48,880 nucleotides of DNA from a virus. Lineage: Duplodnaviria; Heunggongvirae; Uroviricota; Caudoviricetes. A program made the position numbers. Below are positions 34,101-37,100 of this stretch, piece after piece (position 1 is the first letter of the stretch; each line of letters begins with the position of its first letter). The stretch lies in the IMG/VR virus record IMGVR_UViG_2877274432_000013; one strand, 5' to 3'.

Positions 34101-37100
34101 AACCGCTGGAATGATTATTCAGGTCGGGTTTAACACCCGGCTTTTTGAAATGGTACTCATTGCATCGCTTAATTTTCTTTAAATGAGAAACGTCCTCTTT
34201 CTTAACTGAAGACATTAATTCTTTATCAGTTCGAACATTCATTTTTTTCCATTGCATGATCTTCGCTAATTTATAATTTGCAGTTCTCCTGCAACGATTT
34301 GTTATGTGATAGGATATCTCTCTTCGTTTGGCGGTCCATTACTTCAATATCGTGATCATTAAGGTATAGGCTTTGTAATGCCTACATGGTTAAATGATTT
34401 GCCAGTCTTCAGCCATCAGGTCGCCAATGGATGGAGCCCATGTAGCAAGGCGGTTCTGTGAGTTTTTCAATACAAGCGTGTCATTGAAAGTTGGCTCGCC
34501 AACATATTCGCCAAAGCCATAACCCAACGCAGACGCTAATTTTTCTCCTTTCACGAGATAAACAAACTGATCTTTCCCATTCCATCCTGCCCGCTGCAAA
34601 CTTTTGCCCTGTTTTAACGCTTCCATGGCAAGGCCGAAACTTAGCCCTGATACCGGACGATAAGCCTTTTCGAATACTTCTTTTGGACTCCAGCTAACGT
34701 AGCCATCAAAGCGATCGGTGTTAGGTTTTCCGCCATCCAGATATTCAACCAGATAGCCTTCGTCCTCGCCGTTTTCTCCGGCAGGAAGCTGCCAGCCACG
34801 AAAATCGTTATATGCCTGTCTCGTCATCGGAAAGGCGTTAATCAGTTTTACGCCAATATGCTGGGTCATAAAATTACCTATGGAGTTGGGAATAAAAAAA
34901 CCCCGCGAATGCGAGGCTAAATCCTGGTGTTTGTGATGACTGGCTCTTATCTCAACGCAGCCCCTTACCGCGCGCCAGATGCTCAATATCAAGCATCAGC
35001 AATGAGATGTTTAATCTGGATTCACTCCAGAAGTGATCACCACCCTGTCTACAGAGCCAGATGTGAAGGATGATGAGTAGAATTATCGCTATCATCGAAG
35101 GCATTGCGTCCTGATGTATTCCTGCAGGTAGTTAACCTGCGCGGTTATCCTGTCGATTCCGCTTCGGAGACGGTAATAATTAAGTTCAGCATCTGCTGTA
35201 AGTCTTGGGCTTTCTCCATCGCCCATGCTGCTGGCTCCGGTCGTTGACTTTGCACAGGTGGCGGCGACTTGCAGGCGCTTACGACCAGCAGAAACATCAG
35301 CACGGAGACTTTCAATAGTCGCGTTAGCATCAGCAAGCTCCTTTGTGTATCTGGCGTCGAGTTCTGCTACGTCACGTTGACGCTTCTGCATATCAGCGAT
35401 GATGGATGTGGCTTTATCTCGCTGTTCTTTGTAGGCGATGGCGTTATCACGGTAATGATTAACAGCCCATGACAGGCAGACGATGATGCAAATAACCAGA
35501 GCGGAGATAATCGCGGTTACTCTGCTCATACCTCAATCTCTCTGACCGTTCCGCCAGCCTCTTTGAATTTTGCAATCAGGCTGTCAGCCTTATGCTCGAA
35601 CTGACCATAACCAGCGCCAGGCAGTGAAGCCCAGATATTGCTGCAACGGTCGATAGCCTGACGAATATCACCGCGATCAATCATCGGTAAAGCGCCACGC
35701 TCTTTAATCTGCTGTAGTGCAACAGCGTCCTGGCTTTTCGGAGAGAAGTCTTTCAGCCCAAGCTGCTTACGGTATGCATCCCACCAACGGGAAAGAAGCT
35801 GGTAACGTCCGGCTGCTGTTGATTTGAGTTTGGGGTTTAGCGTGACAAGTTTGCGAGGGTGATCTGAGTAATCAGTGAATAGCTCTCCACCAACAATGAC
35901 GTCATAACCATGATTTCTGGTTTTCTGCCGTCCGTTATCAGTTCCCTCTGACCACGCCAGCATATCGAGGAACGCCTTACGTTGATTATTGATTTCCACC
36001 ATCTTCTACTCCGGCTTTTTTAGCAGCGAAGCGTTTGATAAGCGAACCAATCGAGTCAGTACCGATGTAGCCGATGAACACGCTCGTTATATAAGCGAGA
36101 TTGCTACTTAGTCCGGCAAGGTCGAGAAGATCACGAATGAACCAGGCGATAATGGCGCACATCGTTGCGTCGATTACTGTTTTTGTAAACGCACCGCCAT
36201 TATATCTGCCGCGAAGGTACGCCATTGCAAACGCAAGGATTGCCCCGATGCCTTGTTCCTTTGCCGCGAGAATGGCGGCTAACAGGTCATGTTTTTCTGG
36301 CATCTTCATGTCTTACCCCCAATAAGGGGATTTGCTCTATTTAATTAGGAATAAGGTCGATTACTGATAGAACAAATCCAGGCTACTGTGTTTAGTAATC
36401 AGATTTGTTCGTGACCGATATGCACGGGCAAAACGGCAGGAGGTTGTTAGCGCGACCTCCTGCCACCCGCTTTCACGAAGGTCATGTGTAGAAGGCCGCA
36501 GCGTAACTATCACTGATGAATTCAGGATAGCCAGTGGCTACGGCTCAGTTATGGTGCTGGTTAACGGACTTGAACCGCTACCCATTCGCTTACAAGGCGA
36601 CTGCTCTACCATTGGAGCTAAACCAGCATGTTTGGCGGGACAGCGTGGACTCGAACCACGATAAGAAGGTTAACAGCCTTCCGTAATGACCTTTATACGA
36701 CTGACCCAAATAAAAAAAGCCACCGTTGCAACTTAAGAGTCACTAACGGCAGCTTACCCTCTAATTATGGCTAAATGGCTAATTGCATGTCAAGGCTTTT
36801 AACGGCAACATGCTTAACTTTCTCAACACGTTTACGCATTTTGAAAGCATTTTGCATTGGTTGGTACAAAACAAATAACGACGCTTTCAGGATGTCGTCA
36901 ATTTCATTTCTACAGGTTGCCAGTGAAGGTTTTCTCCATCCCTCACCACCACGCCCACACATCTTGCGTGGCTTTGCAGTCGCGTGATAGTAGGATGCAA
37001 TTGCTCGCTTAGATGAACCATGAGCGTAGTAGCTGAGGAGGATGCCAAAGGCTTTCTTGTCAATGTACATGACGGAATCGACGACCTGAGAAATCAACAT

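What the first reader, a model, noticed from the sequence alone, without database searches (positions are those of the whole stretch)
36553..36707. Two phage tRNA genes (hand-folded anticodons UGU and GUU) between the Q-like gene and the lysis cassette
Both fold into cloverleaves with canonical T-loops and CCA ends but carry non-canonical pairs (G-A at 27-43; U-U in an acceptor stem). They lie upstream of a tR'-like hairpin, so they would be made from the late promoter. The commonly described lambdoid tRNA set is Ile/Arg/Arg, so this pair is atypical if the anticodon calls hold.
Basis: seen in the sequence. Interest (0 to 1): 0.4.

Follow-up and report, generated by a model that had tools for sequence, protein, structure and literature searches.

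The report
Known lambdoid phage tRNA-Asn/tRNA-Thr cassette
The two tRNA genes are real, but they are the already published tRNA-Asn(GUU)/tRNA-Thr(UGU) pair found in phage 21, Sf6, SfI and many prophages; they sit just after the late-gene terminator, so they are made when the phage switches on its late genes.

Summary
Confirmed: ARAGORN and Rfam both call tRNA-Asn(GUU) (36707→36633) and tRNA-Thr(UGU) (36627→36552) on the minus strand. Both encode CCA, and the G27·A43 and U4·U69 mismatches are as described. The pair is already known. It is 100% identical to the annotated cassette of phage 21 and Sf6 and is described in the SfI genome paper. It occurs in 93 phage records and 369 of 5,426 complete E. 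coli genomes. The Ile/Arg/Arg set is commoner, but this pair is not unusual.

The regulatory reading needs correction. The experimentally defined 21-type late terminator tR' lies between pR' and the tRNAs, its U-run abutting tRNA-Asn.

Most likely function: late-expressed decoders. ACA is 2.6-fold and AAU 1.8-fold enriched in the late genes compared with a host sample.

One lead not found in the papers I read: these two anticodons are two of the three main targets of the PARIS nuclease AriB. Both phage tRNAs differ from the host tRNAs at positions 39 and 41, which govern AriB cleavage. No tRNA-Lys is present, so any protection would be partial.

The parts
36771..37289 (-). Q-family late antiterminator gene (172 aa as listed, GTG start)
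   Evidence: Pfam PF06530 Phage_antitermQ, 90 bits. 85% amino-acid identity to phage 21 Q, with the C-terminal third diverged. Homologue of Sf6 gene 59.
36764..36793 (-). Late promoter pR' (TTGACA, 18 nt spacer, CATAAT), overlapping the 3' end of Q
   Evidence: 11 of 12 consensus match. Aligns with the annotated pR' of Sf6 and phage 21.
36768..36783 (-). Direct repeats ATTAGCCA/TTTAGCCA at the position of the phage 21 Q-binding element (ATTGAGCA/AATGAGCA)
   Evidence: Alignment with the phage 21 record, where the QBE is annotated. The same repeats occur in 59 of 141 viral loci. Function here is inferred from position only.
36708..36757 (-). Predicted start site (about 36757), pause-element-like TAAGCTG (36756->36750) and the 21-type tR' terminator hairpin with its U-run ending at 36708
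   Evidence: Identical to the phage 21 terminator annotated from PMID 1704887. RNA fold -20.2 kcal/mol, z -5.4, followed by UUUUUUUAUUU.
36633..36707 (-). tRNA-Asn(GUU), 75 nt, CCA encoded, discriminator G73, U4·U69 and U13·U22 mismatches
   Evidence: ARAGORN. Rfam 55.3 bits. Identical to Sf6 and phage 21. Commonest variant in 104 viral loci. Covariation.
36628..36632 (-). 5-nt spacer (AACAU) between the two tRNAs
   Evidence: Sequence. The spacer is 5 nt in 130 of 132 viral loci.
36552..36627 (-). tRNA-Thr(UGU), 76 nt, CCA encoded, discriminator A73, G27·A43 mismatch
   Evidence: ARAGORN. Rfam 61.5 bits. Identical to Sf6 and phage 21. Commonest variant in 82 viral loci.
36490..36551 (-). About 60 nt linker shared by lambda, phage 21, Sf6 and the window; lambda homology begins about 3 nt after the Thr CCA
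   Evidence: Alignments. Phage 21 homology ends near 36490.
36435..36464 (-).
   Evidence: Identical in lambda at about 45031-45060. Fold about -24 kcal/mol, z -3.1. Not called by the terminator scan and not annotated in lambda records. Terminator function is unverified.
35092..36309 (-). Lysis cassette S (36309->35986), R (36002->35526), Rz (35529->35092), the first late genes after the tRNAs
   Evidence: ORFs. 98% DNA identity to lambda S. Sf6 annotation of the homologous genes.

Best explanation
[quoted passage not shown] They form a conserved 156-bp cassette placed immediately after the late-leader terminator tR' of a Q21-family antitermination module and before the lysis genes. Shown: the genes, their intact cloverleaves and encoded CCA ends, their identity to the phage 21/Sf6 cassette, and their position directly after a terminator in every upstream context seen. 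Inferred: RNA polymerase starting at pR' mostly stops at tR' unless Q has modified it. After Q acts, the tRNAs are transcribed as the first part of the late transcript. Host RNase P and 3'-processing enzymes cut them out, and host AsnRS and ThrRS charge them. They then raise decoding capacity for ACA, which is rare in the host and read by the tRNA of the thrU gene, and for AAU/AAC, at the time virion and lysis proteins are made in bulk. A second benefit is possible and compatible: because their anticodon stems differ from the host's, they may survive tRNA-cleaving defence nucleases.
For: Two predictors agree on the tRNA calls, and covariation supports the fold. The known identity elements can be read in the sequence: Thr has G1-C72, C2-G71, G35 and U36; Asn has G34, U35, U36 and G73 (the element lists come from my own knowledge of E. 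coli ThrRS and AsnRS). The cassette is 100% identical to phage 21 and Sf6, where pR', QBE, start site and tR' are annotated upstream of the tRNAs. Upstream context in 141 viral loci: the 21-type hairpin in 111 and other sequence in 29, most of which carry a different hairpin. In the sequences inspected a T-run abuts tRNA-Asn. No other promoter-like site was found in 36200-37400. Codon usage in late genes against a 50 kb K-12 sample called the same way: ACA 13.5 vs 5.2 per 1000 (OR 2.6, p 6e-10), AAU 22.7 vs 12.9 (OR 1.8, p 2e-7), total Asn 48 vs 36 per 1000. ACA is the third most enriched codon. The SfI paper reports the same ACA bias, 17.3 vs 7.1. The alternative cassette Asn+Gly(UCC) matches another enriched codon, GGA at 2.2-fold. 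933W uses the same slot for tRNAs that read other rare codons.
Against: No expression, processing or charging data were obtained here. E. coli has several tRNA-Asn genes and AAC is not enriched; the SfI authors saw no clear Asn bias, so codon supply explains Thr better than Asn. Lambda, with similar late genes, manages without any tRNA. The conserved mismatches (G27·A43, U4·U69) are unexplained and could reduce function. The host codon sample is only 50 kb and the ORF calling is crude.
Confidence: 0.6

Rival explanations
1. [quoted passage not shown] This is compatible with the codon-supply reading.
For: [quoted passage not shown] The motif U36-A-A-U39 is shared by its targets, U39->A abolishes cleavage and A41->C strongly reduces it. 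T5 variants of these three tRNAs neutralise PARIS (PMC12409363). Positions 36-41: host thrU UAAUCA, T5 Thr UAAGCA, cassette Thr UAAGCG; host asnT UAAUCC, T5 Asn UAAGUU, cassette Asn UAACCU, diverged cassette Asn UAACCG. E. coli thrT (GGU), which has G39, is not among the listed AriB targets. PARIS protects against lambda, which has no tRNAs (PMC9122126). tRNA-Thr is also a target of the prophage nuclease HepS. A Tad2-like anti-defence gene lies in the same late operon.
Against: No tRNA-Lys(UUU), the prime AriB target, was found in the window or in any of 145 related loci. T5 tRNA-Lys is required to bypass PARIS. Lack of U39 is common among tRNAs, so this is weak evidence. AriB also needs determinants outside the anticodon arm, so resistance cannot be read from sequence. 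The match of anticodons was noticed after the fact, among several known nuclease specificities. HepS recognises the anticodon itself, so the cassette Thr would probably be cut by it too.
Confidence: 0.25
2. Lysogenic conversion: leak through tR' from the constitutive pR' makes stable tRNAs in the lysogen, where they help translate AT-rich accessory genes such as gtr. The downstream hairpin would stop the leak before the lysis genes.
For: The left part of the window, with gtr, int and IS genes, has the highest ACA (24.7 per 1000) and AAU (26.9) use. The BTP1 RNA-seq paper sets 'the two tRNA genes' aside when listing highly expressed prophage genes in lysogen cultures (PMC7067206). The tRNAs are bracketed by two hairpins.
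Against: BTP1 induces spontaneously at a high rate, which could explain the signal. Terminator function of the downstream hairpin is unverified and its U-run is weak. Phage 21 and 39 of 126 loci lack that hairpin. No read-through measurement exists here.
Confidence: 0.1
3. RNA punctuation: the tRNAs serve mainly as RNase P/RNase E processing sites that remove the paused and terminator leader from the late mRNA. Decoding would be incidental.
For: The position at the very 5' end of the late transcript is conserved in several leader contexts. The same slot is used by unrelated tRNAs in 933W.
Against: Anticodon loops, identity elements and CCA ends are fully conserved, which processing alone does not require. 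The specific anticodons recur across cassette variants. Lambda has no such element.
Confidence: 0.05
4. Inert hitch-hikers or decaying pseudo-tRNAs carried along with the Q21 module.
For: Each tRNA has non-canonical stem pairs. Rare single-locus variants carry disruptive changes.
Against: Scores are far above the Rfam threshold. The sequences are nearly invariant in over 100 loci in Escherichia, Salmonella, Shigella and Klebsiella phages with different flanks. A diverged Asn homologue keeps the fold through compensatory changes.
Confidence: 0.05

Closest known systems
tRNA-Asn(GUU)/tRNA-Thr(UGU) cassette of phage 21, Sf6, SfI, ST64T, BTP1 and relatives
   Same: 100% identical sequence of tR', both tRNAs and the spacer to phage 21 and Sf6. 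Same order, same position after Q/pR'/tR' and before the lysis genes. Described in print for SfI, with the same anticodons and location.
   Different: Nothing in the tRNAs themselves. The window pairs them with the Sf6-type Q allele and QBE repeats rather than the phage 21 ones, and with lambda-type S/R/Rz rather than phage 21 pinholin/SAR-endolysin genes.
ileZ-argN-argO tRNA set of Stx phages (933W)
   Same: Same genomic slot and logic: Q, pR', qut, terminator(s), tRNAs, a further terminator-like hairpin, then late genes. The tRNAs read codons rare in the host.
   Different: Different tRNAs (Ile, Arg, Arg) and no sequence relation. A separate tRNA promoter pT is annotated in 933W; none was found here. 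About 8-fold commoner in E. coli genomes.
Phage T5 tRNA-Lys(UUU)/Thr(UGU)/Asn(GUU) variants that neutralise PARIS
   Same: Two of the three anticodons are the same. U39 is replaced in both, and the Thr change (U39->G) is the same as in T5.
   Different: No tRNA-Lys. The sequences are otherwise unrelated. They sit in a temperate phage's late operon rather than a virulent phage's large tRNA cluster. Resistance to AriB is untested.
Lambda late leader (pR', 6S RNA, tR')
   Same: Same regulatory principle: a constitutive promoter, an early terminator and Q antitermination. The segment from 3 nt after tRNA-Thr through S is 98% identical to lambda.
   Different: Lambda has its own Q, leader and terminator, and no tRNA genes. 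Here the leader is about 45 nt, of the 21 type.

Membership tests
tRNA (Rfam RF00005) | Cloverleaf: 7-bp acceptor stem, D arm, 5-bp anticodon stem with 7-nt loop and U33, T arm with a UUCRANY loop | tested here: met
   Full-length matches to model positions 1-71 at 61.5 and 55.3 bits against a threshold of 29. ARAGORN calls both. Covariation on the Asn family.
tRNA (Rfam RF00005) | Mature, aminoacylated RNA is made | not testable with these tools
   No expression data. Only an indirect mention of the BTP1 tRNA genes in an RNA-seq paper.
tRNA-Thr(UGU) isoacceptor | Anticodon UGU with A37, and the ThrRS identity elements G1-C72, C2-G71, G35, U36 (element list from my own knowledge of E. coli ThrRS) | tested here: met
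   GCUGGUU...AACCAGC-A-CCA; loop CUUGUAA.
tRNA-Asn(GUU) isoacceptor | Anticodon GUU and discriminator G73 (AsnRS identity elements, from my own knowledge) | tested here: met
   Loop CUGUUAA...CUGUCCC-G-CCA.
Phage 21/Sf6-type late-leader tRNA cassette | Asn then Thr, about 5-nt spacer, directly after the tR' U-run of a Q21-family module and before the lysis genes | tested here: met
   Alignment identical through tR' and both tRNAs. Annotations. Q family. Census.
Stx-phage Ile/Arg/Arg tRNA set | ileZ, argN and argO genes downstream of Q | tested here: not met
   Only Asn and Thr are found in the window. The 933W set is a different sequence.
AriB(PARIS)-resistant viral tRNA set (T5 type) | Same anticodon as an AriB target | tested here: met
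   UGU and GUU are two of the three main targets.
AriB(PARIS)-resistant viral tRNA set (T5 type) | Substitutions at the cleavage-site determinants (positions 39 and 41) | tested here: met
   Thr UAAGCG against host UAAUCA; Asn UAACCU against host UAAUCC. Determinants from PMC12409363.
AriB(PARIS)-resistant viral tRNA set (T5 type) | Includes a resistant tRNA-Lys(UUU), which is required for bypass | tested here: not met
   No tRNA-Lys in the window or in 145 related loci. The requirement is stated.
AriB(PARIS)-resistant viral tRNA set (T5 type) | Not cleaved by activated AriB; rescues infection on PARIS+ cells | not testable with these tools
   Needs biochemistry and plaque assays.
Intrinsic terminator (the downstream hairpin at 36435-36464) | GC-rich stem followed by a U-run that causes termination | tested here: inconclusive
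   Stable stem, but only GUUUUG follows. Not called by the scan and not annotated in lambda records.

The most novel reading that the evidence does not exclude
The Asn(GUU)/Thr(UGU) cassette of lambdoid and P22-like temperate phages is a counter-defence module. It would deliver, at the start of late transcription, versions of two of the three tRNAs cut by PARIS-type AriB nucleases, changed at exactly the positions (39 and 41) that govern cleavage. PARIS is carried by P4-like satellites and acts against lambda. Late translation could then continue, fully against AriB variants that spare tRNA-Lys, or partly otherwise. I found no paper that makes this link for temperate phages.
Probability: 0.25. 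Interest if true: 0.55.

Novelty: already known. Interest (0 to 1): 0.22.

Why it matters
As a finding it mainly corrects an annotation-level reading. The tRNA pair is a known, widespread lambdoid cassette, and it is Q-dependent because it lies after tR', not before it. Its wider interest is that the function of phage tRNAs is still debated. This small, highly conserved two-gene cassette sits in a genetically tractable temperate phage. It reads one clearly over-used rare codon (ACA), and it also matches two of the three PARIS targets with changed cleavage-site bases. That makes it a simple system for separating codon supply from defence evasion.

Tried and rejected
1. Tested whether the downstream hairpin is lambda's 6S/tR' terminator, as I first recalled. 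Rejected: it lies at about lambda 45031-45060, only about 125 nt before S and far from the 6S end, and it is not annotated in lambda records. My memory of tandem late terminators (Luk and Szybalski 1983) could not be checked.
2. Looked for a tRNA remnant in lambda at the mosaic joint. None found.
3. Looked for a tRNA-Lys anywhere in the cassette family. None in 145 loci.
4. Scanned ten accessory ORFs of the window against PADLOC for a resident tRNA nuclease. Only the repressor's HTH domain matched.
5. Guo et al. 1991 (PMC207295) and Sargen and Helaine 2024 (PMC11840918) are not held.
6. The first PARIS literature search was swamped by mitochondrial genome papers, and one search failed on a short term.
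7. The BASEL paper has no PARIS or tRNA data for Bas106, which carries the cassette.
8. A position-wise flank comparison was confounded by 1-nt indels and was redone with fuzzy matching.
9. The pseudo-tRNA reading was rejected on score, conservation and compensatory changes.
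Full report
OBSERVATION. ARAGORN finds exactly two tRNA genes in the window, both on the minus strand: tRNA-Thr(UGU) at 36552-36627 and tRNA-Asn(GUU) at 36633-36707. Rfam's tRNA model matches both over its full length, at 61.5 bits (E 5.3e-11) and 55.3 bits (E 2.6e-9) against a threshold of 29. It flags one more, U13·U22 in the Asn D-stem. Both genes encode CCA after the discriminator, which is A73 in Thr and G73 in Asn.

SURROUNDINGS. The window is a mosaic lambdoid prophage lying in the reverse of the usual lambda orientation. It has lambda/434-like early genes, an SfI-type gtr locus and a myovirus-type tail, and the lambda cIII thermoregulator is on the plus strand. 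Reading the minus strand, the order is as follows.
- A Q-family antiterminator at 37289->36771: Pfam PF06530, 85% identical to Q21, with a diverged C-terminal third.
- A near-consensus promoter overlapping its end at 36793->36764.
- Direct repeats ATTAGCCA/TTTAGCCA where phage 21 has its Q-binding element.
- A stable hairpin plus UUUUUUUAUUU at 36755->36708 (-20.2 kcal/mol, z -5.4).
- tRNA-Asn, a 5-nt spacer, then tRNA-Thr.
- About 240 nt of leader, then S, R and Rz.

In the curated phage 21 record the same hairpin is the late terminator, cited to PMID 1704887, and it lies between the mapped pR' start site and tRNA-Asn. Sf6 is annotated the same way. The window is identical to both records from the terminator through both tRNAs. 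The tRNAs are therefore downstream of tR', not upstream of it, and their transcription should depend on Q.

THE DOWNSTREAM HAIRPIN. It lies in a segment that is 98% identical to lambda from 3 nt after the Thr CCA through S. It folds well but is followed only by GUUUUG. The terminator scan does not call it, and two lambda records do not annotate it. Whether it terminates transcription is open.

DISTRIBUTION AND PRIOR KNOWLEDGE.
- The 301-bp region matches 93 phage records, including Sf6, phage 21, BTP1, vB_SosS_Oslo, SPN9CC and several Stx phages. Most annotate tRNA-Asn and tRNA-Thr.
- The pair occurs in 369 of 5,426 complete E. coli genomes.
- The SfI genome paper (2013) describes exactly this pair downstream of Q and names Sf6, ST64T, PS3 and p21 as other carriers (PMC3636060).
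- Among 145 IMG/VR loci fetched with patterns that exclude the anticodon arm, about 130 have Asn then Thr. Seven have Asn then Gly(UCC), and none has tRNA-Lys. The spacer is 5 nt in 130 of 132.
- Upstream, 59 loci have the window's QBE-type repeats, 46 have the true Q21 QBE and 6 have another sequence, all with the 21-type hairpin. Another 29 lack it, and most of those carry a different hairpin. In the sequences inspected a T-run directly abuts tRNA-Asn. The cassette therefore keeps its place just after a late terminator across several antiterminator contexts.
- For comparison, the 933W Ile/Arg/Arg set occupies the same slot. It matches 3,062 E. coli genomes and 287 phage records.

ARE THEY WORKING tRNAs? 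The phage genes are far from the host genes: 41 of 76 bases differ from thrU or thrT, and about 31 of 76 differ from asnT. Even so, they keep the anticodon loops exactly and carry the identity elements I know for E. coli ThrRS (G1-C72, C2-G71, G35, U36) and AsnRS (G34, U35, U36, G73). A diverged Asn homologue in four loci keeps the acceptor stem, including U4·U69, and changes its D, anticodon and T stems by compensatory substitutions. On an alignment with that variant, T5 Asn and E. coli asnT, 13 of 19 pairs change on both sides against 3.3 expected, with 0 of 500 shuffles reaching that. I could obtain no expression or charging data. The BTP1 RNA-seq paper only mentions setting the two tRNA genes aside from its list of highly expressed prophage genes, and notes that the lytic operon starts right after them.

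FUNCTION, MAIN READING. I called ORFs the same way in the window and in a 50 kb K-12 sample.
- In the late genes ACA is used at 13.5 per 1000 against 5.2 in the host sample (odds ratio 2.6, p 6e-10). It is the third most enriched codon, after AGA and AGG.
- AAU is used at 22.7 against 12.9 (odds ratio 1.8).
- AAC is not enriched.
- Total Asn codons are 48 against 36 per 1000.
- GGA, read by the Gly(UCC) of the alternative cassette, is 2.2-fold enriched.

The SfI authors found the same ACA bias and no clear Asn bias. The most likely mechanism is late, Q-dependent co-transcription, processing by host enzymes (inferred from standard E. coli tRNA maturation), and a boost to decoding of ACA and Asn codons during bulk late protein synthesis. 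This explains Thr better than Asn.

FUNCTION, A LEAD. [quoted passage not shown] Its targets share U36-A-A-U39. U39->A abolishes cleavage and A41->C strongly reduces it. The T5 versions of these three tRNAs together neutralise PARIS (PMC12409363). Positions 36-41 read as follows.
- Thr: host thrU UAAUCA, T5 UAAGCA, cassette UAAGCG.
- Asn: host asnT UAAUCC, T5 UAAGUU, cassette UAACCU, diverged cassette variant UAACCG.

The cassette thus carries two of the three AriB target anticodons, and both tRNAs are changed at positions 39 and 41. PARIS also protects against lambda, which has no tRNAs (PMC9122126).

Several points count against this reading. There is no tRNA-Lys in the window or in any related locus, and T5 tRNA-Lys is required for bypass. 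Lack of U39 is common among tRNAs. AriB needs further determinants outside the anticodon arm. The coincidence was also noticed after the fact. None of the PARIS, phage-tRNA or BASEL papers I read mentions this cassette. I rate this reading at about 0.25. It is compatible with codon supply.

OTHER RIVALS. Leaky expression in lysogens could help AT-rich accessory genes such as gtr, where ACA reaches 24.7 per 1000. A role purely as RNA-processing punctuation is possible. So is an inert hitch-hiker. The last two fit poorly with the strict conservation of anticodons, identity elements and fold.

VERDICT. The finding is real but already known. The tRNA calls are right, the terminator geometry was misread, and 'atypical' overstates the case. 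Interest is low. The exception is the untested PARIS link, which simple biochemistry and plaque assays could settle.

Noticed in passing
window 34390-34869 (-): A 159-aa ORF just downstream of Rz in the late operon matches the Pfam Tad2-like (Thoeris anti-defence 2-like) domain PF11195 at 77 bits, E 1.4e-21. It is a possible counter-defence gene next to the lysis cassette.
   Followed up: partly
window 33581-34114 (+): A 177-aa Cys-rich ORF lies on the opposite strand between the lysis region and the small terminase gene. It has a weak CxxCxxCC match (PF03692, 21 bits, just below the cut-off) and looks like a moron-type insertion.
   Followed up: partly
window 7260-7376 (-) and 1-9000: An ALIL pseudoknot (RF01497, 116 bits), the IS3-family frameshift signal, is present. 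A 272-aa ORF recurs at 1-819, 3635-4453 and 8158-8976, so several IS copies sit at the left end of the window.
   Followed up: no
window 45664-45722 (+): The lambda cIII thermoregulator element (RF01804, 88.5 bits) matches full length, which confirms a lambda-type early left operon and the reversed orientation of the window.
   Followed up: no
window 9375-13513: This stretch is 99.9% identical to the gtrA/gtrB/gtrI serotype-conversion locus and neighbouring tail-fibre genes of Shigella phage SfI. The prophage is an SfI-like serotype converter with a different early and late backbone.
   Followed up: partly
one IMG/VR locus among L006-L150 (tRNA-Thr variant listed): A chimeric tRNA-Thr has a 5' 26 nt of cassette type and a 3' 50 nt identical to E. 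coli thrU. This suggests recombination between the phage and host tRNA genes, or an assembly chimera.
   Followed up: no
seven IMG/VR loci among L006-L150: An alternative cassette has tRNA-Asn(GUU) followed by tRNA-Gly(UCC) instead of tRNA-Thr. GGA is 2.2-fold enriched in this window's late genes.
   Followed up: partly
window 36768-36783 (-) and Q C-terminus (about 36771-36930): The Q protein is 85% identical to Q21, with its differences concentrated in the C-terminal third. The repeats at the QBE position are ATTAGCCA/TTTAGCCA rather than ATTGAGCA/AATGAGCA. This looks like a distinct Q/QBE specificity pair shared with Sf6.
   Followed up: partly
about 20 of the 29 IMG/VR loci that lack the 21-type hairpin: A different terminator hairpin (ATCCCGAAAC...GTTTCGGGATTTTTTATTT) precedes tRNA-Asn and ends in the same T-run. 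The recombination joint therefore lies inside or just upstream of the terminator, not at the tRNA.
   Followed up: partly
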